Below are positions 2,089 through 64,000 of a stretch of 64,000 nucleotides of DNA, in pieces (positions within the stretch are counted from its first letter, which is position 1; every line of letters starts with the position of its first letter). Where the stretch lies: assembly GCA_963796455.1 (NCBI GenBank), contig CAWCLO010000003.1:256001-320000 (forward strand), written 5' to 3'. The translations under genes and the position numbers were made by a program. Under the pieces are notes generated by a model. The model was not told the origin of the DNA, did not search any database, and worked only from the letters and a program-made list of their open reading frames with translations. The DNA comes from Candidatus Sulfomarinibacteraceae bacterium. GTDB taxonomy: Bacteria > Acidobacteriota > Thermoanaerobaculia > Thermoanaerobaculales > Sulfomarinibacteraceae.

Positions 2089-2276
2089 GCAAGGGAACGG
2101 GTGCGGTGGAGCAGAGGGGCTCGATGCTAGATACTGGATGCTAGATGCTGGAACACTCTTGTCCAAGACAGAGTCTCGGATAGTTCAGGGACAGCGTCAG
2201 TGAGCAGGGGTCAGCGCCAGCGTTCAGTCGTCAGCGACAGATATCAGCGATCAGCGGCAGGGACAGCGAACAGCAC

Positions 2277-2630
2277 TCACTTCTTCGGGTTCAAGAGCCG
2301 CCAGGTCATTGCACGGACCTGATCGAAGGCCATCATCGCTTTACTGGCTCCATTTCGACTGATCGCCCCGGCGTGGGCGAGGAGCTCCAAGTGGCTGTCG
2401 ACCTCTTTCGCGGAAGCGTAGGCGATTCTCCAATGGTTCGACCGGTCTCTACCGACTCGGCCGTGCCCTTCTGCCAGATTCGCAGGGACCGAACTCGCCG
2501 ACCGGATCACCTGATCGGCTATGGACTTCAGCGGAGCTGGAACCCTCATCACGATCTTGATCGCGATTCCTGCTGCTTCGAGGGCTTTCGAGTGGGCGAC
2601 GAGGTTGGTGTTCGTGGCGGCTGAGGACAT
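2277..2630 (-). CDS. Four helix bundle protein (23S rRNA intervening-sequence protein / Avd-like), 117 aa
   Basis: DQVIRSASSVPANLAEGHGR and IAYASAKEVDSHL family motifs; 107/117 aa identical to 14965-15318. Confidence 0.88.
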   Translation of the reverse strand: MSSAATNTNLVAHSKALEAAGIAIKIVMRVPAPLKSIADQVIRSASSVPANLAEGHGRVGRDRSNHWRIAYASAKEVDSHLELLAHAGAISRNGASKAMMAFDQVRAMTWRLLNPKK

Positions 2631-2766
2631 GGTCACGTCCGGGTCGTTCATGCCCATTCCCACAAGCCGGTGTGGTGGCCGATGTCAAGGATGCCCTGCA
2701 CCCTGCCTGTCCTTGACATCGGCCGCCCACCGGCTACCCCTTCTGTTGAACGACCCGGAGGTGACC
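2631..2766 (-). promoter_or_regulatory. Nested stem-loop leader with an anti-Shine-Dalgarno arm
   Basis: 2631-2650 pairs with 2747-2766 (19/20); inner inverted repeat 2665-2691 / 2710-2735. Confidence 0.6.
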
Positions 2767-3002
2767 ACTTCGTCGCCTGTACCCCCGACCGCTGCTGCTG
2801 CTCCCCGTCGCTGACGGTGTCCCTGTTCGCTGTTGCCTGTCGCTGACGCTGGACACTGTCGCTGCCGCTGCAATTCGGGATCGGGATCCCGCTCCCGAAA
2901 AAGAGAAGGGGAGAATCGCAACGGCAGCTTCGATCAAATCTCCTTGATCGAACCATTTTTTGGCCATGAATCAGATGTACTCTTAAGCTTGAGGAGATAG
3001 GA

Positions 3003-4049
3003 ATGGGCGAGAAAAAGCTTCGGCTGGCATTGATATTCGGAGGGCGTTCGCGCGAGCACGAAGTGAGCGTTGTGTCGGCCCGATCGGTTGATCGAGCCCT
3101 CGATCGAGACCGTTACGAGGTCGTTCCCATGGCGATCGATCGCAGGGGTCTGTGGACGGCACCGGAGGTGGCGGCCCGGATTCTCGAAGACGCTCCCGAC
3201 CGCACCGACAGGGTCATCTCCTTCGAAGGTCTGCACCGGCTCGACCCCCGACTTCTCGCAGAGGACTTCGATGTCGCGTTTCCGGTGCTCCATGGCCCCT
3301 ATGGTGAAGACGGCACGATTCAGGGCCTCTTCGAAATGCTCGATCTCCCCTTTGTCGGCTGCGACACCGCCGCCTCTGCAGTGTGTATGGACAAGATCTT
3401 CTGCAAGAACATGCTCGCCCGGGCATCGATCCCGACGCCACCCTGGGAGGAAATCGACCGAGATCGTTGGGCATTTGATAAGGGTCCGTATATCGAACGC
3501 TGTCTGGCGCTCGGTCTTCCTCTCTTCGTCAAACCGGCACGACTGGGCTCGTCGGTTGGGATCAGCAAAGTCTGCGACGAAAACTCGTTGGCGGCGGCGA
3601 TCGATATCGCCTTCGAACACGGCCGGCGGGTTCTCGTGGAACAGGGGGTCGCGGCGCGCGAAATCGAGATTGCCGTCCTCGGGAACAACGATCCCCGGGC
3701 ATCGGTGCCGGGTGAGATCGTTCCCGGTAACGATTTTTACGACTACAACGACAAATATGTCGACTCTTCATGTCAATTGTTGGCGCCCGCGCCCCTGGAT
3801 GAGCTCACTTCGGTCCGCGCACAGGAGCTGGCGACCCGGGTTTTCACCCTCCTTGGATGCTCAGGGATGGCGCGCGTGGATCTCTTTCTCGAACCCAACG
3901 GGGACCGCTTGTGGGTCAACGAGGTCAACACGATTCCCGGTTTCACCTCGATCTCGATGTTTCCACGGCTCTGGGGCTTGTCGGGGATCGAGTATCCGGC
4001 CCTTTTGAACGAGTTGGTCGATCTCGCGCTCGAGCGCAAAGGCTCCTAG
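3003..4049 (+). CDS. ddl: D-alanine--D-alanine ligase
   Basis: FGGRSREHEVS, LHGPYGEDGTIQG, KPARLGSSVGI and NEVNTIPGFT motifs. Confidence 0.97.
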   Translation: MGEKKLRLALIFGGRSREHEVSVVSARSVDRALDRDRYEVVPMAIDRRGLWTAPEVAARILEDAPDRTDRVISFEGLHRLDPRLLAEDFDVAFPVLHGPYGEDGTIQGLFEMLDLPFVGCDTAASAVCMDKIFCKNMLARASIPTPPWEEIDRDRWAFDKGPYIERCLALGLPLFVKPARLGSSVGISKVCDENSLAAAIDIAFEHGRRVLVEQGVAAREIEIAVLGNNDPRASVPGEIVPGNDFYDYNDKYVDSSCQLLAPAPLDELTSVRAQELATRVFTLLGCSGMARVDLFLEPNGDRLWVNEVNTIPGFTSISMFPRLWGLSGIEYPALLNELVDLALERKGS

Positions 4050-4205
4050 CGGCCCCCGTCCGTTCCCGAAAGGGAGAAAGGGAGGGGAAAGGGAGAGGGC
4101 CCCACCACTCGATTCTGGATACTCGATGCTGGATGCTGCCACCGCTCCCATCCCAAAGGGAGAACCACCCGGCACCGATTTCTCCTGATGGAAACGACGC
4201 CCCCC

Positions 4206-4329
4206 GATGTCATCCTGAGCGGAGCCCCCCAGGGGCGGAGTCGAAGGATCTATGAGACGGACTGAAACGCCCGTGAACCGCAGATCCTTCGACTGCGGCC
4301 GCCGAAAGGCGCTCCCTCAGGATGACATC
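4206..4329. repeat. Long palindromic extragenic element (GATGTCATCCTGAG...CTCAGGATGACATC), copy 1
   Basis: 14-bp terminal inverted repeat plus inner IR AGTCGAAGGATCT/AGATCCTTCGACT; second copy at 36817-36973. Confidence 0.85.
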
Positions 4330-4527
4330 TTGAACGATCGTTCCGGTCCCGATCCCGCTCCCGATCCCGTATGGGGCTGACCGCACCCCAGGGTTGAGGG
4401 AGCGTTCGCTATCGCTATCGCTATCGGAATCGCTATCGAACGGCTGCGGTGGATTCCGTTCCTGTAAGGGGGAAAGGGAGAAAGGGAGAACCGTACCGGA
4501 GGCGTCGTTCGTGATAAGGAGCCGGGT

Positions 4528-4712
4528 CTCCTCTGCTCCTCTGCTCCTCTGCTCCTCTGCTCCTCTGCTCTCTCTGCTCCTCTGCTCCTCTGCTCCTCTG
4601 CTCCTCTGCTCCTCTGCTCCTCTGCTCCTCTGCTCCTCTGCTCCTCTGCTCCTCTGCTCCTCTGCTCCTCTGCTCCTCTGCTCCTCTGCTCCTCTGCTCC
4701 TCTGCTCCTCTG
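4528..4712. repeat. Octamer tandem repeat (CTCCTCTG)x23
   Basis: 5 perfect units, one 9-nt unit, then 17 perfect units. Confidence 0.97.
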
Positions 4713-4794
4713 CTTCAACCGCTCGCATCCGATACCCGGATGCAGTAGGATCACGGGGCACACAGAGTGTCCGGAAAATGCCGCGGTTTGGGGG

Positions 4795-4823
4795 TTGACC
4801 TCCGCCGCCACAGGCACTATCTT
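4795..4823 (+). promoter_or_regulatory. Putative sigma70 promoter of maeB
   Basis: TTGACC-17 nt-TATCTT, about 65 nt upstream of the ATG. Confidence 0.55.
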
Positions 4824-4886
4824 CCGCGCTTGTGAAATCTTTCTCTTTTAGATTTCAGTCTGCGCAAACAACAGAGGAGCCGAAGC

Positions 4887-10254: not shown

Positions 10255-10550
10255 CCTGCGTCCGTGCCCGAATTGCGGCGGCAGCGGCAGTGTTCAGCGG
10301 CAGCGATCTCGTGTAATGACGGCGTGGTCACCTCCGGGTCGTTCAACGGATGAAACAACCGTTGTGGTGTAGGCGTCTCGCCTGCACACCGTGCGGCCGA
10401 GACGGCCGCACCACAAAGGCCGGAACTCCGAAGATGCGGGGGCTGTTCGCTGTCGCTGGCTCCCGTTCGCTGTCGCTGTCCCTGAATGCTGTCCGAGACG
10501 CTGTCTTGGCTATGAACGATCCTGCATCCTGAATTTTGCATCGAGCACCG
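10255..10550 (+). mobile_element. Gene-less copy of the modular element with a REP-like doublet as cargo
   Basis: Left motif 10268-10291, anti-SD 20-mer 10326-10345, hairpin doublet 10363-10415, right hairpin 10491-10510. Confidence 0.6.
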
Positions 10551-10559: not shown

Positions 10560-10775
10560 CGGGCCTCCCTTTCCCCTCTGCCCCTTTTTCCCTCTGCGAG
10601 TTGGTGGATCGATCTGGCCGTCGATAGCGATAGCGATTCCGATAGCGATAGCGATGGGTACTCCGCCCCTCTGCCACGTAGAAGCTCGTTCTCCCTTTCT
10701 CCCTTTCTCCCTTTCTCCCTTTCTCCTCCGCCCCTCTGCCAGACGGAAAGGGATCCAGCATCCAGCATCGAGCGG
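10560..10775. repeat. Microsatellite mosaic (GATAGC)n, (TTTCTCCC)n, (CAGCATC)n
   Basis: Directly visible tandem 6-, 7- and 8-mers; the same units occur at 4070-4140, 4405-4490 and 44755-44847. Confidence 0.8.
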
Positions 10776-10810
10776 CCCGACAGACGGTCGGGTGGTGTAC
10801 CATCCGAAAC

Positions 10811-12662: not shown

Positions 12663-14432
12663 ATGGAAATGGATCGGCGCAACCGGATTGCTCAATGGGT
12701 CTTCGACTCGCGCGCGATTCTCGGACGATTCCATCTGTGGTTGGAAGACGTCGAAATCGAAAGCGAAGGAGTGTCCGAAACGGGCGATATGTCCTTTGTC
12801 GGCGGTTCGTTAGAACGAGCATTTGTGGTTGCGACCGCCGTCACCGCTCTCGGCACCAGGCTCTTTGGACGCTGGGGTGAGGGAGCGGATCTCGACAAGG
12901 CGGGAATCAACCGCGTCAAAAAGGACGCGGATGCGGTCTCGGCCTATGCGCTGTCCGAGGCATTGTGGTATCTCACCCGCAGTCTTCCGGAAAACCACGC
13001 CGTCATGATCTCCCTCGGCGAGGGCCTGATGCCGAAGGCCGGCGAGACTCCCGAAATGGGCTCGAACCCTTTGCTCGGGTTCGGCCGGGTCTATGCGCGG
13101 CCGCAGGTGGCGCGTTTCCTCGACCGAAGGGTCCACCGCCTGGTCAATGATCCGACTTACGAGTGGCCCGAGTTCTGGTTCGATCTCCAGAGTGCCGGCA
13201 TCACCATCTGGGGTGCTGCAGTGGATACTCTGGAAAACACATCCCGATTCGCCAAGGGCAGTCCAACCGGACCGATGACAATTCTTCACCTTTATGACCA
13301 ACCACTCAAGGTGGCACGGCCCTATGAGGGCTACATGGGCAATATCACCCTGCCTCGAGAGGTTGTCGACCAGGCCGCGGATCGATCCATTCTGATCGAC
13401 TATCGAACGCCCCGGGCCCGGGTCATGGAAGCGATCCGGGACACGTATCCTATGATCCGACCCGAAAATGTTCACGTCTGGACTCTGGGAGGACCGAGCC
13501 GCGAAAACCGCCTCTCGAACCTGTGGGCTGAGTGGCAGGAACTCGGCGCTCACCTCGTCGAAGATGGCTGGCCGATGCCCGGCACGAACATCCCGGTTTT
13601 CACCGAATCGGGAACCTACGCGCCGGCTTTTCGTGTCGGCACCTTCGAAGATGAAGACGGCGCCACCCATGTATTCATCTGCGATGGGTATGCGGCATCG
13701 GCGGAAGCCATGCAGGCGGCGAGTCTCGATCCGATCCTCGATCTCTCGACCTCGATGACCCTGTTTTCGTCCAGTTTCAAGGCCCCTGCGGATCGTGAGC
13801 GTGAGGTCATTGCACTGGACCCCGAGGCCGAAGATTTTGCCGATCAACTCGCTGCCACCCTTGAATCAGAGATCGATCCGGCCCTTGCCAGGGAATACAG
13901 CGAGAGCCTTCGCGGCGCTCGCGAAGCCTTGATGCCGGTCGACAAAAAGACGATCACCGCGGACGATTTCTTCCCTCTCAAACAGTGGCGGGTGCTCGCT
14001 CTCGCAGGCTATATGCTGCCCGATCCCTATACCGGCTCGAATGGTGTGGAACAGATCAGCGACGATCGTTTCAGGGTCACGACACGGGCGGCGACCCGCA
14101 ACGGCATGATCAACGTGACCCTCGTTCTTCGACTGATGGAGACGAAGGACCAGATGCAGATGGTTTTTTCACCCCTTCTCGATCGCTTTTATTCGGGTCA
14201 GGACCACACCACACGGGCGGTCAAGATCTCGGATTCAGGCAGGATCAGAAACGAATTGCAGACGTTGGCCTCAGAAGCGATCGAATTCCTGCCGGATGAT
14301 CGTATGTTGGTCAACTTCGGTTTGATCGACGATTCCGTGCTGCCTCCGGACAAGCGTGATCTCATCCGTGAAGTCCTGGTCTGGTACAAGAAGAACCACC
14401 CCACCTGGTTCAAGTGGCTCGAGATGAAATAG
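12663..14432 (+). CDS. Hypothetical protein, distant class II fructose-1,6-bisphosphatase (GlpX)-like
   Basis: ISLGEG...NPLL, AVDTLENT..FAKG and EGYM resemble GlpX VIGEG...APML, AVDPLEGT..AKG and DxYM; GGGAGG RBS. Confidence 0.55.
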   Translation: MEMDRRNRIAQWVFDSRAILGRFHLWLEDVEIESEGVSETGDMSFVGGSLERAFVVATAVTALGTRLFGRWGEGADLDKAGINRVKKDADAVSAYALSEALWYLTRSLPENHAVMISLGEGLMPKAGETPEMGSNPLLGFGRVYARPQVARFLDRRVHRLVNDPTYEWPEFWFDLQSAGITIWGAAVDTLENTSRFAKGSPTGPMTILHLYDQPLKVARPYEGYMGNITLPREVVDQAADRSILIDYRTPRARVMEAIRDTYPMIRPENVHVWTLGGPSRENRLSNLWAEWQELGAHLVEDGWPMPGTNIPVFTESGTYAPAFRVGTFEDEDGATHVFICDGYAASAEAMQAASLDPILDLSTSMTLFSSSFKAPADREREVIALDPEAEDFADQLAATLESEIDPALAREYSESLRGAREALMPVDKKTITADDFFPLKQWRVLALAGYMLPDPYTGSNGVEQISDDRFRVTTRAATRNGMINVTLVLRLMETKDQMQMVFSPLLDRFYSGQDHTTRAVKISDSGRIRNELQTLASEAIEFLPDDRMLVNFGLIDDSVLPPDKRDLIREVLVWYKKNHPTWFKWLEMK

Positions 14433-14829
14433 TCGCTGGATACTCGATGCTGGATACGTCGAGATCGTCAGTCTCGCCACACAATTACCAAATCTCTTCG
14501 ATTGATCTGATCTGCTGATTGTGCACTGTTCCGGTAGCCAAATCGCGAATTAGGAATCGAATATCCAGTATCCAGTATTACTGCTGTCAGAACAGACCGT
14601 CACCTGAAGTTTCCCGCCCGACAACACTTGGTTTACAGGTTGGTTTTTGGCATATCCGGTTGGCGGTTGCCCGTGCCCGCGTCCGCGTCCGCGTCCGCGT
14701 CCGAATTGCAGCGGCAGCGACAGTGTCCAGTGTCAGCGATCAGCGATCAGCGATCAGCGGCAGCGGCAGCGGAGGAGCGGCAGCGGGCGGAGCGGCAGCG
14801 GCAGCGGTCAGGAGTCCAGGCGACGAAGT

Positions 14830-14966
14830 GGCCACCTCCGGGTCGTTCAACAGAAGGGGTAGCCGGTGGGCGGCCGATGTCAAGGACAGGCAGGGTGCAG
14901 GGCATCCTTGACATCGGCCGCCCACCGGCTTGTGGGTATAGGCATGAACGAACCGGAGGTGACCAT
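14830..14966 (+). promoter_or_regulatory. Nested stem-loop leader covering the GGAGG RBS
   Basis: 14830-14849 pairs with 14945-14964 (18/20); perfect 26-bp IR 14861-14886 / 14905-14930 with an 18-nt loop. Confidence 0.65.
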
Positions 14967-15318
14967 GTCCTCAGCCGCCACGAACACCAACCTCGTTGCC
15001 CACTCGAAAGCCCTCGAAGCAGCAGGAATCGCGATCAAGCTCGTGATGAGGGTTCCAGCTCCACTGAAGTCCATAGCCGATCAGGTAGTCCGATCGGCGA
15101 GTTCAGTCCCCGCGAACCTGGCAGAAGGGCACGGCCGTTTCGGTAGAGACCGGTTAAACCACTGGAGAATCGCCTACGCCTCGGCGAAAGAGGTCGACAG
15201 CCATTTGCAGCTCCTCGCCCACGCCGGGGCGATCACCCCGAACGGAGCCAGTGAAGCGATGGACGCCTTCGATCAGGTCCGTGCGATGACCTGGCGGCTC
15301 TTGAACCCGAAGGAGTGA
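14965..15318 (+). CDS. Four helix bundle protein (23S rRNA intervening-sequence protein / Avd-like), 117 aa
   Basis: DQVVRSASSVPANLAEGHGR motif; GGAGG at 14955-14959; paralog of 2277-2630. Confidence 0.9.
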   Translation: MSSAATNTNLVAHSKALEAAGIAIKLVMRVPAPLKSIADQVVRSASSVPANLAEGHGRFGRDRLNHWRIAYASAKEVDSHLQLLAHAGAITPNGASEAMDAFDQVRAMTWRLLNPKE

Positions 15319-15470
15319 GTGCTGTTCGCTGTCCCTGCCGCTGATCGCTGGCGCTGATCACTGTCGCTGCCGCTGACTCCTGTTCGCTGACGCTGTCCCT
15401 GAACGCTGTCCGAGACGCTGTCTTGGACAAGTGTGATCCAGCATCCAGTATCCCCTGGCGGATCGAAGTC

Positions 15471-36589: not shown

Positions 36590-37215
36590 CCCGGATGATG
36601 CAGGATTCAAGATCACACTCATCCATGACAGCGCCTTGGACAGCGATCAGGGACGGCGACCCGGATCGGCGGACAGCGTCAGCGTCCGGTCATCAGCGAC
36701 AGGAATCGGCGGCAGCGAACAGCAGACCTTCGATGGTGGAAAACACCTTCTATGGATCCTCGCTCTCACGGTGACCCATAGCTGTAGGGATTATTGAGCT
36801 GGTTGAATACACTCAAGATGTCATCCTGAGCGGAGCCCCCACAGGGGCGTAGTCGAAGGATCTATGAGATGAAACGGAAAGAACCTCGCCCGCAGAACCT
36901 GCCCTGAGCGAGCAGCGCGAGTCGAACGGGTCCTTCGACTGCGCGCCGAAGGCGCTGCGCTCAGGATGACATCGGGAGGCGACATTCGTTTGCGTGCGGA
37001 ATCCGTGACGGGTGGCTCTCGCTGAAGACGGCCGCTGTTGACTGAACGCTGAACACTGACCGCTGCCCCTGTTCGCTGTTACCTGACGCTGGACACTGCC
37101 GCTGGCGACTGTTCGCTGCCGCTGCCCCTGATCGCCGTCCGAGACTCTGTCTTGGACAAGTATGATCCAGCATCCAGCATCCAGCATCGAGTATCGAGTA
37201 TCGAGCATCTTGCGC
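36590..37215. mobile_element. Composite element: two facing right-end modules enclosing a long palindrome
   Basis: Right hairpin on minus strand 36621-36641 and on plus strand 37137-37157; CAGCG/CGCTG flanks; palindrome 36817-36973. Confidence 0.5.
36817..36973. repeat. Long palindromic extragenic element, copy 2
   Basis: Shares about 50 nt GATGTCATCCTGAGCGGAGCCCCC..AGGGGCG.AGTCGAAGGATCTATGAGA with 4206-4260. Confidence 0.85.
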
Positions 37216-39054: not shown

Positions 39055-39345
39055 ACCTCTTGGCTCCATTCAGGGACAGCAATCAGGTGCGGTGACGAAC
39101 TGACTACATCCGGGTCGTTCAACAGACGGAACAGTCGCTGTGGTGTTGGCGTCTCGCCTGCACACCGTGCGGCCGAGACGGCCGCACCACCAAGATCGGA
39201 GCCCCGAAGAAGTGAGGGCTGTTCGCTGTCCCGGCCGCTGATCGCTGTTTTCGGTCGCTGCTTCCTGTCGCTGGCCGCTGTTCACTGTCCCTGTCGCTGA
39301 AAACTGTCGCTGCCGCTGCAATTCGGACACGGACGCGGCACGAAG
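39055..39345 (+). mobile_element. Gene-less copy of the modular element with a REP-like doublet and a remnant of the four-helix-bundle 3' end
   Basis: TCCGGGTCGTTCAACAGA 39109-39126; doublet 39139-39190; CCGAAGAAGTGA plus downstream flank 39204-39247; left motif inverted at 39303-39326. Confidence 0.6.
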
Positions 39346-44449: not shown

Positions 44450-44559
44450 GGGGCGACTCGACCGGATTCAGAGGGACCGTGTGGCATCCTGCAAAGTATA
44501 GAGGGATCGGGTTGCTCCCGCCCAACCGGACACCGGATCCACCTACCACCGCGAGAGAA

Positions 44560-44847: not shown

Positions 44848-44921
44848 AAAAACCGAGGTGGCCGCCACCATTTTTTGTCGCGGAGTACCGGCCGGGCCTC
44901 AGGTTGTGACAAGATGACGCC

Positions 44922-52400: not shown

Positions 52401-54886
52401 ATCGTGATCGTGCGCTCCTCATCCGGTCGTGTGTCGGTATATCTCGTGCTGCCGATTTCGATCTCGAGCCCGACATCTTGTCTCCACTCGAGGAATATTT
52501 GAATAGCTAGGGCGTCGCAGTCGTGAACAGGCCTCGAGGTGCAGACCTGGGTGGAACTCTCGCCGTCACACCCGCTGCCACCCATGGTCCAGGTGGCCTT
52601 GTCGATCGGAACCCCCACTCCGTCGATGGCGAAGATGAGGTTCGTCGCCCCGCTCCAGCGTGCCGCCCGGGAAATCGATGGTCGGCCGGATTTCGCCGTT
52701 GAGGAATCGAACATTCGGTTTCGGTGTACTCGCTGGTCTCGGATGCCGCCGCCGGTGACTTTCAGGGTGATGTCATAAGCGCCCCAGCCCAGCGCATCAG
52801 CTGGAATCACACAACGTTCTTCATCGAAACAAACATCACGTTCCATGGCGCAGGCACTGTTGTCACCAGGGGGCGCATTATCACAATCGGCGGTACGGTT
52901 TTTGGGGCCGTAGACCGTCCACTCGTAGAGATCGATCGACCCCTTCGAGTCGCCACCGTCGAGGGTGATGGCCGAGTTGTTCAGAAGATCGCCGGTCTGC
53001 GAATCCGAGCTGATGGTGAAGTCGGCCGCAACCGAGGAGACCGGATATTCCCGCGAGCTTTCGTACTCGTAGGTTGTGTCTCCATCGAGATCGCCCCAAC
53101 GGTTGTCATAGGGAAAATCGCTGTCCTGGGAAACGCCGCTCGCGCCATGATCGTAGTTGACGGTCAGCGTGAATTCCCAGTCGCCGGAAATATCGAGATC
53201 CACATCGATGACCGCACCGTATTCGGTCGTGGGCGGGCTCGACGGTGCGTCGATGGTCCAGACATAGGTGTCGGTGTCCGAAGGATTGGCTGCGGCGGTG
53301 GCTGAGAGGGTCACGGACTCTCCGACGACCGCGGTCTCCGGATCCACGGTAAATCCTGCCGTCGGCTCCCGGTCGATGCCGATCGGCTTCGAGGCATCCG
53401 GCACCGCGGGATCGAGACCACTGTTCGAGATCTCGATGTTGGCCGTGAAGACTTCCCCTATGGCAACATTCTTGGGCACGGTAAAGCTCATCTCGGATGG
53501 GTTGGACGGCACCGGCAGGGTCTCACCAGCCTCGAATACACTGTCGCGTTCGACCCACAGGGCCCAGGCATCATAGGACCCTGAGGAGTGGTCGCGGATG
53601 GTGACTGCGTCGCCGGGAAAAACCGAGGCCGGGGTCACCGTCAGATCGGCGACGGCTTCGGTCGGGCCCATGCAGGCTGACAGATCGAAAACCTGGTGCA
53701 TCGCGTAGCGACTCAAATACAGAGCCGAACCATCGGGTGCCAGGGCTCCGTCCATATCGAGGAGACAATCCTGATATTCGTTGTGCGGCTCCGAGAGGTC
53801 GCCCCAGAAATCATTGTCAAAGGCTTGCGGCCCGGCCTCGGGATCGATCAGATAGGTGAGGGATGAATTGAGAAACGACGTCGCGGCCGTCCAGAGCACC
53901 AGCGGGCTCGAGCCGTTCTCTGAACCCAGGGCCACCATGCTGGCGTTGCCGGGGATGGACCATGAGGACTTGAGCTGCGGGTTACCCGGATCATTCGAAA
54001 GGTCCCAGAAACGGACTTCACCAACGTTCCGGTTGGCCGAGACCACCAGGTCGTGGGCCTCGTTGACGGCGAGGTTGTGGTTCTGGCCTTTCATGCCCGA
54101 GGGCGACGAAGTGTGTTCGAGACGGAGCCCAAGACCGGTTCCACTGGTCTTGAACACTGCCGCGTCGCCAAAGAGCCCGGTCCCGAGATAGAGATACGAC
54201 GTCGAGCCCATTTCAACACTCGCGCCTCCGGAGACCGACACCGCCGATCCGCCGACCTCGATACACTGGAGCTCGACCAGGCTATTCACCCCATTGACGG
54301 CGAAAAGAGCGTGTTGGGAGCAGCTTTCGCTGATTCCACCGGCAATCAGATAGACCTGGTTGTCGTGGGAAAAGACCTTCGAACTGAGGGTCAGGCGATT
54401 GTTCCGGCTGTATTCGGTGAAATCGGGCTCGGAGCCCGTCCCAAAATCGAAGACGACCACCCCCGCGACTTTGTGGTCCATGACGCCGTAACGGCAGTTG
54501 TCGCAGACGTCTACGGAGACAACATCGTAGTCCGAATCGCCGGCAGTTCCGAAGTTGAATCTGGAGCCGTCGATCTTATCCGGATTGGTGGCGTTGGTGC
54601 CGCCGATATCGTAGATTTCCAACTCGTTTCCGCGGCTCAGGAGCAGGTACACTCCGCCGTTCCAACTGAATGTTTCCGTGTTGAGGGCGCGATCGCGATT
54701 CGGGCTCGAAACACAGCGCAGATCATCCGCGTAATTCAGGTGCGTGATCAGTGTGTCGGTAAAATCCTGGCAGTAGGCACCCTGGGCTTCGGCCGTGGGC
54801 GCAACGGCAACCGCCGCAAGCATCAGCGCGGAGATTACAACGCACCGAATAAGAGTCGATTTCGTGAGAATCCATGAGCACAACAT
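49451..54886 (-). CDS. Giant secreted surface protein (~1810 aa): propeller-like N-terminus, PKD and BACON domains, two C-terminal lineage-type repeats
   Basis: GGAGGTGAGC-ATG start; PKD (W.FG, PGTYRVTLVASN) and BACON (CSWSATSTSSWI...RTG) motifs, poly-Gly linkers. Confidence 0.85.
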   Translation of the reverse strand: MLCSWILTKSTLIRCVVISALMLAAVAVAPTAEAQGAYCQDFTDTLITHLNYADDLRCVSSPNRDRALNTETFSWNGGVYLLLSRGNELEIYDIGGTNATNPDKIDGSRFNFGTAGDSDYDVVSVDVCDNCRYGVMDHKVAGVVVFDFGTGSEPDFTEYSRNNRLTLSSKVFSHDNQVYLIAGGISESCSQHALFAVNGVNSLVELQCIEVGGSAVSVSGGASVEMGSTSYLYLGTGLFGDAAVFKTSGTGLGLRLEHTSSPSGMKGQNHNLAVNEAHDLVVSANRNVGEVRFWDLSNDPGNPQLKSSWSIPGNASMVALGSENGSSPLVLWTAATSFLNSSLTYLIDPEAGPQAFDNDFWGDLSEPHNEYQDCLLDMDGALAPDGSALYLSRYAMHQVFDLSACMGPTEAVADLTVTPASVFPGDAVTIRDHSSGSYDAWALWVERDSVFEAGETLPVPSNPSEMSFTVPKNVAIGEVFTANIEISNSGLDPAVPDASKPIGIDREPTAGFTVDPETAVVGESVTLSATAAANPSDTDTYVWTIDAPSSPPTTEYGAVIDVDLDISGDWEFTLTVNYDHGASGVSQDSDFPYDNRWGDLDGDTTYEYESSREYPVSSVAADFTISSDSQTGDLLNNSAITLDGGDSKGSIDLYEWTVYGPKNRTADCDNAPPGDNSACAMERDVCFDEERCVIPADALGWGAYDITLKVTGGGIRDQRVHRNRMFDSSTAKSGRPSISRAARWSGATNLIFAIDGVGVPIDKATWTMGGSGCDGESSTQVCTSRPVHDCDALAIQIFLEWRQDVGLEIEIGSTRYTDTRPDEERTITIASSGSCTTGGGGGGGGTTCTYTHSGDGGIAPGPAAAEFAFTVFTSYGCSWSATSTSSWINILNPVGTDSGTGTVRFAIQQNFGPARTGFVVAGGRSFRVDQGAPYVAANFTMSNPFPERGEVVTFTVDPILVVESWNFGEENCAGSSPQINCLFLPPGACNSIEWAFQTAGEKSVTMVLADDRTQTKHPVVQNKGECCFADGAPDASFVVSNDEIYTGELVSFTETSEKSSKNAKALGFSWTPPDPEIGETVTFRLEGLTGEVSGAYWNFGETGCNGAVQNPQCTPSLFNDCNAITFAFASGGAKNVSVNVDLSAGGSVSAGPTTVDVTNTGSCDTGGGGGGGTGCSWTISPTSVNFYPTGGVGSVNVTTTAECPWDATTTSSWINLTNASGTGSGVVTYNVVENTSENSRTGLVKIENKTHTVRQNGVEPVLDTAPTAWLWTVSLLLDEGGLDEVVATSPDQHFSYVFRDPGTYRVTLVASNCYGGANYSQTYEVLQAPVEDYVVGAAVSLAGDENTQWETDFRFFNPCDETLAVKVSYEPGGTNNTDVQLLSREFDLNANETRVFTDIVDVIPGLAGDELSGSARIESESASGCKVMTVSRTFNDTPDGSLGLNVPALPVKRSEFDLIGFAGLVKNEDYRTNFRLVNYGDEDAWVGLFMYDNHGNPVGAVESAPVPGHSTFQINDIAAWLKYDGDIDLFSVKADVRGRDLDAFATVIDNMTGDSVLHRSSFSEVDRVWLVGVANLAGAGDSEWHTDVWLYNPYEADSGQWLGGQGKFVVSGSSGDAYGFVWPLLAPGFSQGYVDVVGSVLGLQGQRGYMVLEGAPGLPVPQVAARTYNENQSGGTSGLGLFAFTEDDLLKPGETGFVAGISNNGDKNTGFRTNLGLVNTDESLWTTVKITLFGLGGFPAAEPWTLTIGPGVYDQWDIFKALGLEFTTIEGTIKVEVIEGGAVAIFGTEIDNRTQDSIYLPAQRRYIGLAP

Positions 54887-55038
54887 GCTCACCTCCGAGG
54901 ACAAAATTACCGCACGAGCGGCCGGGCTGTCAATCAGCGGGTTCATCATAGACCTTTTATCTTTGAATAATTTACGGGGTTGGCGAGGGATGTGACCACG
55001 GTCACCGGAAAACGTTTCGGTCCATGCCGAGTTGCGGC

Positions 55039-55067
55039 ATTCTAGGGTCTGGTTCACCATATGTCAA
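55039..55067 (-). promoter_or_regulatory. Putative sigma70 promoter of the giant surface protein gene
   Basis: Minus strand TTGACA-17 nt-TAGAAT. Confidence 0.65.
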
Positions 55068-55217: not shown

Positions 55218-56762
55218 TTATTCGCTCGCGACGTACATCAGACCGAGGTCCGGAAGAACCTGAGTCTGGTCGCAGTTGTAGTTCGCCATGACGGCGCCGG
55301 TGAGGGCAGCGGTGTAGTCACCGAAGCCGGAGTACTTGGCACCGACCCAGGTCTGGTACCAGTCGTTGACGGCCACATCGGCGCCGTTCGAACCAGGCCA
55401 CACGAAGAGGAGCCAACCGAAGAACTCGTCATCCGCATCTTCGCGGACGATGAAGAACTGGCTGATGTCGACTTCCTGGGTCTCCAGGGGGAGAAGGTTC
55501 GGAACCGGGCGGATGGGATCTTCGGTACCGGACCACGGGTCCTCGTCCGAAGAGACCGTGTTCACGTTCTCGTCCTCATCCCACGCGTAGTAGGTGTAGG
55601 GCACACACGCGGAGGCATAGAGGTTGGCGGGACCGGCGGAGGTGATGTTGCCCCAGTTAGGACCAGTGTCCGAGCTGGCGAGATCCATCACGGTGCGGTT
55701 CAGCGACGAGGCTTTGAACGCACGGATCCAGGTGTTGACACCGGCTTCTTCCTGAAGCTGGTAGCGAATGGCCCACGCGGACGGCAGCGGCTCACGAGCA
55801 TCCGCACCGGCCGAGAAAGCCAGGGTGTAACGGAAGTAGAAGGTCGGAACCTGACCGGCAACCGGGTAACCGGCGGGGCCGACAGACTCGAGGTGAACTG
55901 CCTGGTCCGCCTCGGAGAAGCGGCTGGTGGCATTGAGCCAAATCGTGTCGCCGACGAGCACGTTGTCATCGATGACGCCGTCGGTGTTGGCACGATCAAG
56001 GGCGAAGTAGGTGGAAGCCTGCGCATCGGGAAGGTCCTTGTTGCAGGCGGCAACGACGTCGGCGGTGACATACATCCACACCGGGCCGCTATCGCGCGAG
56101 ATGAACCATGTATCGGCCGGGAAGACCTCGGTGTCGTCATCGCAATTGAGGTAGGACTTCGCAGCGGTCTGGCTGGCTTTGAGGTAACCCTCGAAGACGC
56201 TCAGGGTGCCCGGGGGGATCGCGTCAACATAGTTCTCCGGCGAGGAGATCCAGTCATCGGGATCGCAGTCGAGCGGGTTGGTCGACTCGGGGTCGTCCAG
56301 GTTGTTGATCACGAGGACCGGGTCGTGGAGCTCATTGTGGCTCGACCACGGGCCATCGTCGAACGGCGTGCCGCCGGCGTTGGAGGTGCCGGTACCATCC
56401 CACCAGATGTTCTCTTTGCGGCCGGTGTCGGCGTCCTCGGTCGGCAGCAGGCCGAGGGCGAGGATGTCGCGGATGTTCATCCGCGTCACGTCGTAACCGG
56501 TCATGGTCAAGTTGAAATCGAGGATCGCGACCGAATAGTCCGTCCACACCGTGATGTGAACGATCTGCGCCTCCGAAGAGACGTTGGTGATAGCGATCTG
56601 GGTGGTGTCGCCATCGAAACCACCTTCATAGTCAAAAGCGACAAACGGGAACAGCAGCGTCGCTGCCGGCACCGCGTCAAACGAGCAGTAGTTGGCATTT
56701 GCCACACCGCTCACGCCAAGGACCGCAGCCCCCAGCAGCGCAATTGTAAGAAACCTCTTCAT
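55218..56762 (-). CDS. Acidic secreted protein, candidate S-layer/major surface protein
   Basis: Signal peptide ending ANA; DAVPAATLLFPF...WTDYS...DFN..MTGYDV motif; strong AGGAAGGAG RBS; own promoter and terminator. Confidence 0.7.
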   Translation of the reverse strand: MKRFLTIALLGAAVLGVSGVANANYCSFDAVPAATLLFPFVAFDYEGGFDGDTTQIAITNVSSEAQIVHITVWTDYSVAILDFNLTMTGYDVTRMNIRDILALGLLPTEDADTGRKENIWWDGTGTSNAGGTPFDDGPWSSHNELHDPVLVINNLDDPESTNPLDCDPDDWISSPENYVDAIPPGTLSVFEGYLKASQTAAKSYLNCDDDTEVFPADTWFISRDSGPVWMYVTADVVAACNKDLPDAQASTYFALDRANTDGVIDDNVLVGDTIWLNATSRFSEADQAVHLESVGPAGYPVAGQVPTFYFRYTLAFSAGADAREPLPSAWAIRYQLQEEAGVNTWIRAFKASSLNRTVMDLASSDTGPNWGNITSAGPANLYASACVPYTYYAWDEDENVNTVSSDEDPWSGTEDPIRPVPNLLPLETQEVDISQFFIVREDADDEFFGWLLFVWPGSNGADVAVNDWYQTWVGAKYSGFGDYTAALTGAVMANYNCDQTQVLPDLGLMYVASE

Positions 56763-56925
56763 TCTCAGCTCCTTCCTTTTCCTCATTAATCGAAATCGAA
56801 TCTCTGGTTTACGTCCGACCGTCGTGGCCGGTGTGCGGTTCTTCGTCTCTCCGATGTTCCGCATCACCTCCCGTAAATAATTTCAATCCACGAACTTAAA
56901 TTTAGAATATGTCATCACAGCATAA

Positions 56926-59711: not shown

Positions 59712-59786
59712 AAGTAACGTCTGGCCGTACTGTGTCCGCCCGTCGCGGCGAAGAGTACTACAGGCAGAATGCGAAGGGCAATCAGC

Positions 59787-60203
59787 GTGGCAAAGAAAGC
59801 GCAACTCACGTCACCGCAGGTGGCCGCCATCGGCAGCCGCATGCGAGAGTTGCGCAAGGAGCGCGGCCTGACTCAGGCCGAGCTGGCGCGCCAGATTGGC
59901 ATCCAACAGTCCGACCTGTCGCGAATGGAGAAGGGTGAATACCGGGTCTCGCTGGACAATCTCTTCAGGATCCTCGGGGTATTCAACCTCGATCTTGCGG
60001 ATTTCTTCGGCGACAAACCGAGTGCTACCGAGTCGCTGCAGCAACCTCTCAGCCAGCAGGATATGCAGACCCTGCACATGCTGCGGGAGCTCAGCCCGGC
60101 CGGCCGGGCCGAAGTCCAGGAGTTCCTGGAATTCAAACTGCGCCGGGAACGGCAGGAACGACGCACGATCCCGGCCCGACGCTCCGGAGACCAAAGCTCA
60201 TGA
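59787..60203 (+). CDS. XRE-family helix-turn-helix regulator
   Basis: LRKERGLTQAELARQIGIQQSDLSRMEKG. Confidence 0.92.
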   Translation: MAKKAQLTSPQVAAIGSRMRELRKERGLTQAELARQIGIQQSDLSRMEKGEYRVSLDNLFRILGVFNLDLADFFGDKPSATESLQQPLSQQDMQTLHMLRELSPAGRAEVQEFLEFKLRRERQERRTIPARRSGDQSS

Positions 60204-61102
60204 GTGCGCACTACGACGATCTGCTGACGCGCGCGGAGCAGGCCCTCGGGCGTGACGAATTTGAAGAATCCGCGAAGCTTTTCGCCGAGGCCGAGTCCGA
60301 GGCCCGAGCGACCGGCGATTTCGACGGCGCGGACCGCGCGTTCTGCAACCGCTGTTCGGTGCTGGTCGAGCTCGATCAGGGCGCCGATCAGATTCCCAAG
60401 CTGAAGGAAATCCTCCTTCGCTCATCCGATACCCGTAATCGCTTCCTCGCCGCCTATTGCACAGGGGTCGCGTACTACGTCTCAGAAGAATTCGACCGTG
60501 CTCAAAACTATGCTCGCCGCGCCACTTCCCTGGCGCGCGATCTCGAAGACGCCGGCCTCGAGCACAAAAGCCTCAACCTGGTGGGCACACTCGCCGCCCG
60601 CGCTTCAGTTTTTGATGAGGCCGAAGACGCCTTCAGGCGATGCCTCGAGGCCTACCGGGGGGCAGAAGGCTATCAGCGGGTCATGGCAGCGCAGGTCGAG
60701 GACAACCTCGGCTACGTGATGCTCTGCACCGATCGCCTCGAAGAGGGCATCTCCCACTGCGAGCATGCTCGAGAGGTGATGGACCAGATCGGCGCCGATC
60801 ACTTTGTTTACGAAACACTACAAGATCTTTGTTATGGATACGTCCTTGTCGACGAGCTCGATAGAGCCCAGGAGCACGGCGCGAGGGCGCTCGAGCTCGC
60901 GGTCGAGTTCTCCGACGAGCAGATCGCCAAGAACTGTTTGTTCCTGTTGAGTGAAATCGCGGTGCGACGCGGCGACACATTCGGTGCCCGCCGATACCTG
61001 CACGAGCTCACCGCGTACTACCCGGAGGCCGGAGTTTCCGAGGAGATCATCGATGTCTTCCTCGCAACCGATCTGACCTCCGTGGTGAATTTGAGGGGGT
61101 AG
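60200..61102 (+). CDS. Tetratricopeptide-repeat-like protein
   Basis: Helical repeats (SLNLVG, EDNLGY, LQDLCYGY); ATGA overlap with the XRE gene. Confidence 0.8.
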   Translation: MSAHYDDLLTRAEQALGRDEFEESAKLFAEAESEARATGDFDGADRAFCNRCSVLVELDQGADQIPKLKEILLRSSDTRNRFLAAYCTGVAYYVSEEFDRAQNYARRATSLARDLEDAGLEHKSLNLVGTLAARASVFDEAEDAFRRCLEAYRGAEGYQRVMAAQVEDNLGYVMLCTDRLEEGISHCEHAREVMDQIGADHFVYETLQDLCYGYVLVDELDRAQEHGARALELAVEFSDEQIAKNCLFLLSEIAVRRGDTFGARRYLHELTAYYPEAGVSEEIIDVFLATDLTSVVNLRG

Positions 61103-62124: not shown

Positions 62125-62144
62125 TTCGTTATTCTGAGAAACCC

Positions 62145-62176
62145 AAAGGCCCGCTCTTCGGAGCGGGCCTTTTTTC
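62145..62176 (+). terminator. Rho-independent terminator
   Basis: AAAGGCCCGCTC-TTCG-GAGCGGGCCTTTTTT. Confidence 0.92.
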
Positions 62177-62193
62177 TTGCAGACGCCGGCTGG

Positions 62194-63312
62194 TCAGGGA
62201 ATGACCCGACGAACCAGCCCTTCGAGCGATTCGGCATAGCCGGCCCATGTCGATTTTTCGCGCCCGGCCGTTCCAAGCGTCAACTCGTGCAATCGATTGC
62301 GGTCGAGATCTGTCATTGCGCGAGCAATCGCCGTTGCAGAGCCCGGCTGCACGATGAGTCCATCAACACCGTCCTTCACGACCTCCGGAAGACCCCCGAC
62401 GGAGGTACTCAAGACCGGGACGCCCGCGCCCAGGGCGAGCGGGGCAACCGCCGACTGCGAGCCCGACCGGTAGGGAAGCACCACGAGATCGGCGGCAGCG
62501 AGCAATCCCGCGACTTCCGGTTCGGGAACCCATCCGAATCGCAAACCGACCCGGTCTTCGAGTCCGAGCCTTTGGACCTGGGTTCTGAGTTCCTGACCAA
62601 GTGATCCCCACGGTTCACCAGCGACGACGAGCATCCAGTCACTGTCCGCCGGAAGCTGTGCCATCGCTTCAAGGAGAAGATCGACGCCCTTGTACGGCCG
62701 TAACAGCCCAAGAAAGAGCGCCACCCGTTTTCCTTCGGCGATCCCCAGGGTCGCCCGCGCCTCCTCGGGCGAGGGCATTGGACCGGGATCGATGGACGGC
62801 AAAGGGCACGAATTCGTTGGGAGACCCGGATAAATTTCCTCGAGTTGTTCCTGGAGCGCCGAAGCGTGAGTGAAAAGGGCCTGACATCGGCCGAGGACCG
62901 AACGGGCCGCCAGACGCTGGATTCGTGAGGCGTCGTGGTCGAAGGGGTTATGCACCACTGCGACCGCAGGCGGTCGCCGGCCGGCGAGCATGAAGCGCCA
63001 CAAGCCGGCCCAGGCCCAGGTCCAGTAGGGCAGGATCCACGCCTCACCGCCCAGCGCCAGGGCCCGCTTCCGACTTCCGGCCCACGACAGAGGATTCAAA
63101 GGGTCCAGCTCTGCGGTGGCAAACTCGAGGCGGCGACAGGCCTCCGGATCGCGGTCGTCCCGGCCCGGAAAAAGAAACCGGGGATATTGCCGCTTTGGAG
63201 TCAGAAAACTGACCTCATGACCACGCGCGGAAAGTGCGTCCGCCATCTCGGTGGTCGTGCGTGCGACGCCGCCCCGGTATGGATGCCCCGACCCGAAAAC
63301 GATCAGGCGCAC
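62194..63312 (-). CDS. Glycosyltransferase family 4
   Basis: HPYRGGVA, GLLRPYKG and LPYRSGSQS motifs. Confidence 0.92.
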   Translation of the reverse strand: MRLIVFGSGHPYRGGVARTTTEMADALSARGHEVSFLTPKRQYPRFLFPGRDDRDPEACRRLEFATAELDPLNPLSWAGSRKRALALGGEAWILPYWTWAWAGLWRFMLAGRRPPAVAVVHNPFDHDASRIQRLAARSVLGRCQALFTHASALQEQLEEIYPGLPTNSCPLPSIDPGPMPSPEEARATLGIAEGKRVALFLGLLRPYKGVDLLLEAMAQLPADSDWMLVVAGEPWGSLGQELRTQVQRLGLEDRVGLRFGWVPEPEVAGLLAAADLVVLPYRSGSQSAVAPLALGAGVPVLSTSVGGLPEVVKDGVDGLIVQPGSATAIARAMTDLDRNRLHELTLGTAGREKSTWAGYAESLEGLVRRVIP

Positions 63313-63321
63313 GGCACAGCC

Positions 63322-63837
63322 TCAACTGGTCGGGGGATGGGTCACCTTGCGAAATCGTTTCTCGAGCTGCAGGCGAACCGGGTCCGGAACCAGCCCGGTC
63401 ACATCACCACCGAGCACCACCACCTCGCGGACCAGCCTCGAGGAGAGGTAGAGGACCTCCTCCTTGGGGGTCAGAAAGACCGTCTCGATCGTCGGGGAGA
63501 GACGCCGGTTCATCAGCGCCATCTGAAATTCGTACTCGAAATCCGAGACTGCGCGCATACCGCGAATGATGATGGTGGCGTCCATCTCGTCGAGAAAATT
63601 GACCAACAGACCGGAAAAGGACCGGACTTCGACGGCCGGGTCGTCGTGGTAGATCTCTTCAATCATCTCCGCCCGTTCGGACGGCGTGAACATGGCGTCT
63701 TTGCCAGCGTTCTGGAGGACACCGACGATCACCCGCGGAAAAATCCGGGTCGCCCGTTCGACAATCGCCACGTGCCCGACGTGGAATGGGTCGAAAGAAC
63801 CGGGATAGACGGCAAGCGGTTCGTGTTTTTCAGTCAT
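63322..63837 (-). CDS. coaD: Phosphopantetheine adenylyltransferase
   Basis: YPGSFDPFHVGH, RGMRAVSDFEYE and LSSRLVRE motifs. Confidence 0.96.
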   Translation of the reverse strand: MTEKHEPLAVYPGSFDPFHVGHVAIVERATRIFPRVIVGVLQNAGKDAMFTPSERAEMIEEIYHDDPAVEVRSFSGLLVNFLDEMDATIIIRGMRAVSDFEYEFQMALMNRRLSPTIETVFLTPKEEVLYLSSRLVREVVVLGGDVTGLVPDPVRLQLEKRFRKVTHPPTS

Positions 63838-63884
63838 CGCGGGGATTGTAGCACCCGGCTTCACCCTGTGGGCTGCGCCGCTCG

Positions 63885-64000
63885 CTCGATGCTGGATGCT
63901 GGATGCAAGATGCTGGATTTCGAATCACTCTTCTCCAAGACATTGTCCCCGGACGGCATCCAGGGACGCCGACGGGGAACGGCGGACAGCGACAGCGAAC
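63885..64000 (-). mobile_element. Right end of a further modular element (truncated by the window)
   Basis: (GATGCTG)n, then hairpin 63933-63953, CAGGGAC and GGACAGCGACAGCGAAC, in the same order as 2120-2275. Confidence 0.6.

What the first reader, a model, noticed from the sequence alone, without database searches (positions are those of the whole stretch)
2120..64000. Family of modular intergenic elements with a constant frame and exchangeable cargo (four-helix-bundle gene, REP doublet or palindrome), with no mobility enzyme in the window
Seen: at least six loci (2120-2900, 10255-10550, 14670-15452, 36590-37215, 39055-39345, 63885-end) reuse the same parts. These are a left motif CCGAATTGCAGCGGCAGCGACAGT (2855-2878, 10268-10291, 14701-14724, 39303-39326), CAGCG-rich arms, a core motif CCGGGTCGTTCAAC, and a right hairpin followed by CAGCATC 7-mers. 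Two loci hold an intact four-helix-bundle gene, two a hairpin doublet and one a long palindrome. All sit strictly between genes. Known: this protein family includes 23S rRNA intervening-sequence proteins and the DGR accessory protein Avd, which binds nucleic acid. Inference: a poorly described non-autonomous or RNA-based dispersed element system in which the small protein recognises its own structured RNA/ssDNA and spread relies on a trans factor. This is my best candidate for a novel system; I cannot verify novelty here.
Basis: partly seen in the sequence, partly recalled or inferred. Interest (0 to 1): 0.9.

Follow-up and report, generated by a model that had tools for sequence, protein, structure and literature searches.

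The report
IS4-shelled four-helix-bundle cassette, freely recombining
The repeated pieces are whole, truncated and refilled copies of a small transposase-less DNA cassette with IS4-type ends, likely moved by a transposase supplied from elsewhere, whose passenger gene (the unexplained 'rRNA intervening-sequence' protein) is kept under purifying selection in dozens of copies that appear to swap pieces with one another.

Summary
The repeats are real and genome-wide: 65 near-full copies of the four-helix-bundle (FHB) gene and 117 left ends. The full element (window 14579-15435) has 19-bp terminal inverted repeats and a 9-bp target duplication; the CAGCATC 7-mers are the target, not part of it. Autonomous IS4-family transposons with the same ends exist, one in the same genus; none was found in this 90.5%-complete genome, nor any reverse transcriptase. 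So the shell is a mobile insertion cassette, not an RNA element. The 'exchangeable cargo' is fixed subfamilies: full gene, a REP-doublet replacement, and deletions. Unexplained: the passenger (repeat arms, covarying leader hairpin, FHB gene) also rides in ISL3 shells or bare in relatives; 58 intact copies show dN/dS 0.14 yet near linkage equilibrium, like one recombining pool; and most FHB genes sampled across the phylum sit between inverted 7-8-mer arms. This scan already reported the IS4 and ISL3 cassettes and the heptamer arms on other DNA; the recombination, selection, subfamily and empty-site results are added here. Verdict: new variant of a known kind.

The parts
14579..15435 (+). Locus C: complete 857-bp IS4-ended cassette with intact FHB gene
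   Evidence: both TIRs and 9-bp duplication ATCCAGTAT/ATCCAGCAT
14570..14578 (+). Left copy of the 9-bp target duplication, inside a heptamer run
14579..14597 (+). Left terminal inverted repeat (family form CACTGCTGTCCAAAACAGA)
   Evidence: same ends on autonomous IS4 elements
14598..14700 (+). Left subterminal region plus CCCGTG/CCGCGT hexamer run
   Evidence: shared by about 100 genomic copies
14701..14815 (+). 'Left motif' and CAGCG(A/G) left arm of the passenger cassette
   Evidence: 159 genomic motif hits at up to 3 mismatches
14828..14967 (+). Leader stem-loop: 'core' motif pairs with the GGAGGT ribosome-binding region and second ATG; inner hairpin covaries
   Evidence: z -9.8; 15 of 47 pairs with compensatory change in 24 sequences; p-distance 0.056 among copies
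14944..15318 (+). Four-helix-bundle gene (TIGR02436 / PF05635); likely start at ATG 14965
   Evidence: model pLDDT 93.6 matches 2GSC/2RLD (TM 0.80-0.84) and Avd 4DWL (TM 0.79)
15319..15416 (+). CGCTG right arm (inverted relative to the left arm)
   Evidence: (I14)
15417..15435 (+). Right terminal inverted repeat (family form TCTGTCTTGGACAAGAGTG)
15436..15444 (+). Right copy of the 9-bp target duplication
2154..2890 (-). Locus A: left-truncated copy with intact FHB gene (2277-2651) and right TIR (2154-2172); shares a ~520-bp near-identical tract with G000:C10:534228-535084 but not its ends
2120..2153 (-). CAGCATC-type heptamer run flanking A (target array)
10268..10520 (+). Locus B: REP-doublet subfamily copy without left end; doublet about 10362-10418
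36614..37164 (.). Locus D: two right ends facing outward (36614-36632 -, 37146-37164 +) with arms around an unrelated REP-like doublet (36818-36972)
39069..39326 (+). Locus E: core plus REP doublet plus arm, ending in an inverted left motif; no TIRs
63926..64000 (.). Locus F: inverted right end and arm; core and REP doublet follow beyond the window

Best explanation
The loci are whole, truncated and refilled copies of a transposase-less cassette with IS4-family terminal repeats and 9-bp target duplications, likely moved by cut-and-paste by an IS4 transposase supplied in trans, and carrying a likely older passenger made of inverted short-repeat arms, a leader hairpin and a four-helix-bundle gene. 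Shown: ends, duplication, matching autonomous IS4 elements, filled versus empty sites, subfamily structure, purifying selection, mosaic copies. Inferred: (1) the transposase visits intermittently, since none was found in this assembly; (2) its palindromic target preference AT(C/G)C(A/T)G(C/G)AT sends it into pre-existing heptamer arrays between genes; (3) an ancestral replacement of the gene by a RAYT-type REP doublet, and several deletions, founded gene-less subfamilies that transposed too, so the protein is not needed in cis for transposition; (4) once resident, copies exchange short tracts by homologous recombination, which truncates ends at repeat runs and turns the gene copies into one allele pool; (5) the protein is likely an Avd-like pentamer that binds its own arm or leader RNA and favours persistence or spread of its own cassette. 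Step 5 is the weakest (about 0.35 on its own).
For: 9-bp duplication: 22 of 73 elements with good ends perfect versus 1.8 (max 6) under shuffled pairing; mean identity 0.80 versus 0.52; also at non-consensus targets; 10 of 17 perfect in G071. Same TIRs on 1514-1609-bp elements L038, L074, L080, L082 encoding DUF4372 + DDE_Tnp_1 transposases, three with a perfect 9-bp duplication, and on congener element L121. Ends CA------T with 8-10-bp DR fit subgroup IS4Sa (PMC2266710 Table 1). Empty sites in relatives and a contig of run X6 that joins 14430 to 15473. A near-identical recent burst in G071. Subfamilies: FHB 32, REP doublet 28, other 25 of 85 elements, with fixed junctions. dN/dS 0.14 in 58 intact copies; pN/pS 0.10-0.26 in six relatives. 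r2 about 0.02-0.03 beyond 60 bp, decay with distance p=0.003 at third positions; ~520-bp shared tract. Same passenger in ISL3 shells with 8-bp duplication.
Against: No cognate transposase in G000, and a homolog in only 1 of 24 congeners and 6 of 76 family genomes, while exact left-end matches are abundant in G000, G071 and G072, so transposition is inferred from scars. Only 35 of 65 gene copies keep both shell ends. Many duplications are imperfect (51 of 73), and L121 itself shows no duplication. A passive passenger should decay, yet variants shared between copies are strongly synonymous (140 syn / 56 nonsyn, versus 60 / 101 for singletons), which the shell mechanism alone does not explain. 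Recurrent mutation could add to the four-gamete fraction; long identical runs exceed the codon-shuffled mean (11 versus 1.5) but equal its maximum. No expression data.
Confidence: 0.7

Rival explanations
1. The arm-bounded FHB cassette is the real selfish unit. It spreads mainly by recombination into matching short-repeat arrays, promoted by its own protein, and the IS4 and ISL3 shells are occasional vehicles.
For: Passenger found with IS4 ends (15), ISL3 ends (29) or neither (16) in 60 congener loci. 30 of 65 copies in G000 lack one or both shell ends, often breaking at hexamer runs. 20 of 27 unrelated FHB genes across the phylum have inverted shared 7-mers in their flanks versus 1.1 under shuffled pairing. 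Orthologous site C holds different heptamer types in different species. Purifying selection concentrated in shared variants.
Against: No nuclease, recombinase or RT activity is known for this fold; the high-copy expansions examined (G000, G071, G006) mostly carry shell ends; bare copies may be eroded shells; control windows also reached the inverted-sharing threshold in 7 of 25.
Confidence: 0.15
2. One reading: an RNA-based element in which the protein binds its RNA and a reverse transcriptase or HUH enzyme in trans copies it.
For: Avd-like fold; Avd binds an RNA stem-loop with all five protomers (bioRxiv 10.1101/2023.10.23.563531, passages); conserved leader hairpin; three short Y1_Tnp (RAYT-like) genes in the genome, two with REP-like flanks resembling the doublet cargo.
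Against: No RVT_1 match in G000 (90.5% complete); TIRs and 9-bp duplications match DDE transposition; no adenine-biased variation; the Y1_Tnp genes viewed are not inside the element frame.
Confidence: 0.07
3. The copies are retained because the protein or the hairpin helps the host (for example RNA chaperoning or transcript processing between convergent genes); selection acts on the pooled copies through the host.
For: Purifying selection in all seven genomes tested; 33 of 90 elements lie between convergent genes versus 21% of background gaps.
Against: 7 of 24 congeners have no match to this gene at E<=1e-20 and copy number ranges 1-48 in the rest; sites are empty in relatives; many deleted copies persist.
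Confidence: 0.05
4. The heptamer arrays are footprints: each excision leaves two 9-bp duplications joined through the terminal AT, adding 7 bp per cycle.
For: Array period 7 equals duplication 9 minus the 2-bp AT overlap; 41 of 96 AT-N5 heptamer arrays abut a TIR; ISL3 shells likewise sit in arrays made of their 8-bp duplication.
Against: 55 of 96 arrays have no TIR and are as long (5.96 versus 5.3 units); many unrelated unit types exist; GATGCTC arrays occupy site C in G071 and G040 without the cassette, and G040 has no exact left-end match; arrays commonly form inverted pairs.
Confidence: 0.08

Closest known systems
Mobile insertion cassettes (MIC231 of Bacillus cereus group; IS4 family) as described in PMC6199540 (passages read)
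   Same: Two IS4-family inverted repeats, no transposase, a passenger CDS, size within 0.7-3 kb, movement in trans.
   Different: Ends fit IS4Sa rather than IS231; dozens of copies; the same passenger also occurs in ISL3 shells; insertion into heptamer arrays; copies recombine and stay under purifying selection; trans-mobilisation not shown here.
IS4Sa-subgroup insertion sequences and their MITEs (PMC2266710, passages and Table 1 read)
   Same: CA------T ends, 9-bp duplication, cognate DDE_Tnp_1 transposases with a Y-(2)-R-(3)-E-(6)-K motif visible in L038/L074/L080.
   Different: The window elements encode no transposase; subgroup assignment rests on end pattern and duplication length, not on an ISfinder comparison.
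ORF-bearing 23S rRNA intervening sequences (S23p; PMC4990558, passages read)
   Same: Same protein family inside complementary termini; that paper lists transposition remnant and ORF-assisted mobility as untested origin hypotheses.
   Different: Here the cassette is between protein genes, not in rRNA; RNase III excision untested; the gene is conserved rather than decaying.
DGR accessory protein Avd (bioRxiv 10.1101/2023.10.23.563531 and PMC10053308, passages read)
   Same: Same fold (TM 0.79 to 4DWL), nearby structured RNA.
   Different: About 10% identity; no RT found; no adenine-specific variation.
REP / REPIN elements with RAYT
   Same: One subfamily carries a REP-like doublet resembling the flanks of a Y1_Tnp gene in this genome.
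   Different: 64 of 72 such doublets sit inside this cassette's frame with fixed junctions, so they amplified with the IS4 shell.
Intergenic heptamer arrays of Xanthomonas and Nostoc (PMC4692102, passages and one supplement row) and Beggiatoaceae (PMC4679880, abstract and one passage)
   Same: Dispersed intergenic 7-mer runs, often in convergent inverted pairs; one GGGAATC run overlaps the start of XCC0516, the FHB protein of structure 2GSC.
   Different: The passages read do not link the arrays to FHB genes and report no association with IS elements; here an IS4 cassette targets them.

Membership tests
Mobile insertion cassette (IS4-derived) | Pair of IS-family terminal inverted repeats | tested here: met
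   identical ends on autonomous elements
Mobile insertion cassette (IS4-derived) | No transposase gene; passenger CDS between the ends | tested here: met
Mobile insertion cassette (IS4-derived) | Target duplication of the cognate IS length | tested here: met
   9 bp, 22 of 73 perfect versus 1.8 shuffled; 9 bp on L038, L074, L082
Mobile insertion cassette (IS4-derived) | Cognate transposase available in the same cell | tested here: inconclusive
   not found in G000, 90.5% complete; present in congener G052
Mobile insertion cassette (IS4-derived) | Trans-mobilisation demonstrated | not testable with these tools
   needs an experiment; filled versus empty sites are indirect support
IS4Sa subgroup | Ends CA------T, 8-10-bp DR, YREK motif in cognate transposase | tested here: met
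   PMC2266710 Table 1; sequences
IS4Sa subgroup | Transposase clusters with named IS4Sa members | not tested
   no ISfinder reference set was used
23S rRNA IVS with S23p ORF | PF05635/TIGR02436 ORF | tested here: met
23S rRNA IVS with S23p ORF | Located inside an rRNA gene | tested here: not met
   window has no Rfam match; short rRNA motifs map to C10:141083-145089, where no TIGR02436 match lies
23S rRNA IVS with S23p ORF | Excised from RNA by RNase III | not testable with these tools
   no RNA run listed
Diversity-generating retroelement | Reverse transcriptase | tested here: not met
   0 RVT_1 matches in G000; genome incomplete
Diversity-generating retroelement | Adenine-specific variation | tested here: not met
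   substitution spectrum not A-biased on either strand
REP/REPIN-RAYT | RAYT-like gene flanked by the same REP | tested here: inconclusive
   Y1_Tnp at C1:952748 has closely similar but not identical palindromes; this concerns the cargo, not the shell
ISL3-derived cassette (relatives' shell) | ISL3-matching ends and 8-bp duplication | tested here: met
   in relatives: L266, L267 transposases with the same ends; 8-bp identity 0.88 in 15 elements. Not the shell in this window; no ISL3 transposase in G000

The most novel reading that the evidence does not exclude
Four-helix-bundle 'IVS proteins' are the hallmark of a widespread, enzyme-less class of selfish cassettes: the pentamer binds its own repeat-armed RNA and promotes copying of the cassette by recombination into matching 6-8-mer arrays, while IS4 and ISL3 shells are borrowed for long jumps. 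This would explain the rRNA intervening-sequence ORFs, the bacterial heptamer arrays, and why dozens of copies in one genome behave as a single recombining, selected population.
Probability: 0.2. Interest if true: 0.87.

Novelty: new variant of a known kind. Interest (0 to 1): 0.56.

Why it matters
The shell is ordinary transposon biology, but the passenger is not explained by it. A gene of unknown function has been captured by two unrelated IS families, carries a leader hairpin as conserved as its protein, and is purged of amino-acid change across 58 reshuffled copies in one chromosome although gene-less subfamilies spread as well. That makes two old questions testable in one small system: whether the ORFs of rRNA intervening sequences help their own mobility, and where intergenic heptamer arrays come from. 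A cognate transposase, target consensus and natural gene-less controls are all identified.

Tried and rejected
RT, GIY-YIG, ISL3 and DUF4372 searches of the own genome: none, except one long-frame GIY-YIG match not examined further. The single DDE_Tnp_1 hit (C7:291107) has different ends. DDE hits in G071/G058 have other ends and look IS1380-like (family name recalled). Three ~2-kb end pairings were set aside as probable mispairings and not examined. Rfam: no match in the window. No sigma-70 promoter or terminator match in locus C. No RNA holder listed, so expression is untested. One search had an off-by-one in the end position, corrected. A 5- or 7-bp duplication with longer TIRs was considered and rejected because non-consensus targets duplicate 9 bp. 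Site-by-site cargo exchange was rejected in favour of subfamilies with fixed junctions. In one search the own-genome locus, one truncated locus (L262) and unpublished G099 were left out; L239's upstream score is an N-run artefact, so 'both arms periodic' is 14 rather than 15 of 27. PMC4679880, PMC8700078 and PMC5524665 gave nothing on FHB-repeat links. No complex prediction was run: the tool takes at most four copies and no RNA.


Full report
Observation. Two loci encode TIGR02436/PF05635 four-helix-bundle (FHB) proteins; a model from a 38-sequence alignment (pLDDT 93.6) matches XCC0516 (2GSC), BT_0352 (2RLD) and, more weakly by E-value, Avd (4DWL, TM 0.79). The window is G000:C3:256001-320000. 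The genome has 73 TIGR02436 matches, 65 near-full copies of the window gene at 86-94% nucleotide identity, 159 left-motif and 152 core-motif hits. The family is real and much larger than six loci.

True ends. 117 left ends were found; 93 paired with a right end, 90 of them under 1 kb (340-894 bp). Among 73 with good ends, flank identity peaks at 9 bp: mean 0.80 and 22 perfect, versus 0.52 and 1.8 (max 6) when left and right flanks are shuffled; non-consensus targets are duplicated too; the target consensus is the palindrome AT(C/G)C(A/T)G(C/G)AT. The CAGCATC 7-mers are therefore target. Only window locus C (14579-15435) is complete. Of 65 gene copies, 35 keep both shell ends, 11 the left only, 14 the right only, 5 neither.

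The trans factor. Four are 1514-1609-bp elements bounded by both ends with a 421-438-aa DUF4372 + DDE_Tnp_1 frame; three have a perfect 9-bp duplication, one 7 of 9. A homolog with the same ends lies in congener G052 (L121). Ends CA------T and 8-10-bp duplications define subgroup IS4Sa in PMC2266710 Table 1 (passages), and two IS ends around a passenger CDS define a mobile insertion cassette in PMC6199540 (passages). G000 itself (90.5% complete) gave no such transposase, no RT, no ISL3 transposase; homologs occur in 1 of 24 congeners and 6 of 76 family genomes.

Filled and empty sites. Between ddl and the malic enzyme gene, 22 loci from 21 relatives have 91-205 bp; G000 has 840 bp of stacked repeats. 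The pyruvate oxidase-ddl gap is under 100 bp in the 2 of 23 loci with this gene order, versus 914 bp here. At site C, 17 relatives with both flanking genes have 82-696 bp; by eye none shows this cassette and about 15 start with a heptamer run, of at least five different unit types. A contig of run X6, about 96% alike on the left gene, joins 14430 to 15473. All 90 short elements fall between heuristic gene calls; 33 are between convergent genes against 396 of 1881 background gaps (a gene split by an insertion would be missed).

Cargo. Of 85 elements, 32 carry the gene, 28 a REP-like doublet and 25 deletions or other inserts. The doublet copies share fixed junctions and keep the gene's last codons, so they descend from one replacement; 64 of 72 genomic doublets lie beside the core motif, and they resemble the palindromes flanking a Y1_Tnp gene. 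Locus D's palindrome is a separate repeat (116 loci, 0 near the core). Gene-less subfamilies have duplications as good as gene-bearing ones, so the protein is not needed in cis for transposition (inference).

The passenger is likely older than the shell. The gene has matches in 17 of 24 congeners, 1-48 each. In 60 congener loci that I fetched (best-scoring hits, not all) and could parse, the arms-leader-gene unit sits with IS4 ends in 15, with a second set of ends in 29, with neither in 16. The second ends match two ISL3 transposase loci and give an 8-bp duplication. Copies cluster largely by genome (midpoint-rooted, no direction claimed). The leader folds at z -9.8 and hides the GGAGGT site; 15 of 47 pairs show compensatory change in 24 related sequences, all but one in the inner stem, while the outer stem is nearly invariant; its p-distance among copies is 0.056 against 0.175-0.18 for the shell ends.

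Selection and recombination. 58 of 65 copies are intact; pairwise dS 0.35, dN/dS 0.14. Variants shared by several copies are 140 synonymous to 56 non-synonymous; singletons 60 to 101 (Fisher p 9e-11). Six relatives give pN/pS 0.10-0.26 on 5-18 copies each. Yet the copies have no stable tree: 65% of 2485 site pairs show four gametes, r2 is 0.02-0.03 beyond 60 bp (1/n = 0.017), and it decays with distance (p 0.003, third positions only). Of 10 module pairs only hairpin with the 5' half of the gene correlates (p 0.014). Window copy A shares about 520 near-identical bases with a C10 copy but neither end region. Four-gamete fractions are 0.42-0.59 in five relatives and 0.15 in G071, whose copies are a recent burst. 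Short-read contigs of four runs from three studies show the same alternative letters at several sites, so the alleles are not peculiar to one assembly; chimeric assembly of single loci was not excluded, and recurrent mutation may contribute.

Heptamer arrays. G000 has 1098 arrays of period 6-9; 41 of 96 AT-N5 heptamer arrays abut a shell end. Its four unrelated single-copy FHB genes each sit between their own inverted 6-8-mer arms, and those unit types are among the common arrays. Across the phylum, 24 of 27 FHB loci have a periodic flank (1 of 25 control windows) and 20 of 27 share inverted 7-mers (shuffled pairing 1.1, max 5; control windows 7 of 25). In PMC4692102 supplement file 2, row 27, a GGGAATC run overlaps the start of XCC0516, the 2GSC protein. 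I read the arrays as pre-existing targets rather than excision footprints, but the footprint arithmetic (9 minus 2 = 7) is not excluded.

Mechanism. Shown: IS4-type ends, duplication, cognate IS, empty sites, subfamilies, selection, mosaicism. Inferred: trans cut-and-paste into arrays, later short-tract recombination, and an RNA-binding role for the protein by analogy to Avd, whose five protomers contact one stem-loop (bioRxiv 10.1101/2023.10.23.563531, passages). What selects on the gene is open.

Novelty. The shell is a known kind. Nine full-text searches returned no listing that describes FHB genes in IS-ended cassettes or between heptamer arms; most subscription papers are not covered, I read passages only, and bioRxiv supplements were closed. 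PMC4990558 (passages) names transposition remnant and ORF-assisted mobility as open hypotheses for rRNA intervening sequences. This scan has reported the IS4 cassette, the ISL3 cassette and the heptamer arms before; those notes are leads, not support. Verdict: new variant of a known kind, interest 0.56.

Noticed in passing
window 4050-4886: 840-bp stack of unrelated repeats between ddl and the malic enzyme gene (8-mer, 7-mer and 6-mer runs, a REP-like doublet at 4207, about 23 copies of CTCCTCTG at 4531-4715); relatives have 91-205 bp here.
   Followed up: partly
window 44559-44855 and 10567-10780: Gene-less inverted heptamer arms and nested CTCCCTTT, CTCCTCTG and CGATAG runs; unit types match arms of single-copy FHB genes elsewhere in the genome for the last two.
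   Followed up: partly
G000:C4:1278079, C1:983116, C9:2705, C10:733016: Four unrelated single-copy FHB genes, each between its own inverted 8-, 8-, 7- and 6-mer arms.
   Followed up: partly
G000:C1:453902-454360: A GxxExxY-type (PF13366) gene also lies between inverted short-repeat arms, so the arm architecture is not limited to FHB genes.
   Followed up: no
G000:C1:952748, C4:210157, C1:740752: Three short Y1_Tnp (RAYT-like) genes with palindromic flanks; three longer Y1_Tnp frames (336-346 aa) elsewhere.
   Followed up: partly
L217-L235 (orthologs of window 14433-15470): The same intergenic site carries different heptamer types in different species, often as inverted arms around CCCACCC/GGGTGGG, suggesting repeated replacement.
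   Followed up: partly
G000:C10:353797 and C1:391606: Copies whose internal part is inverted relative to the shell.
   Followed up: no
L031, L035, L049, L067, L078: Elements or partial IS4 copies of about 1.1 kb with related ends in unrelated phyla; many 110-410-bp MITEs with the same ends occur across phyla.
   Followed up: no
window 27238-48459: Large cluster of glycosyltransferase and sugar-transferase genes, into which loci D and E have inserted.
   Followed up: no
window 49451-55060, 41240-44449, 55218-56867: Long ORFs with little or no family match (1869 aa with weak PKD/BACON hits; 1069 aa and 549 aa with none in NCBIfam or Pfam).
   Followed up: no
window 59769-61102: HTH transcriptional regulator followed by a TPR-like protein.
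   Followed up: no
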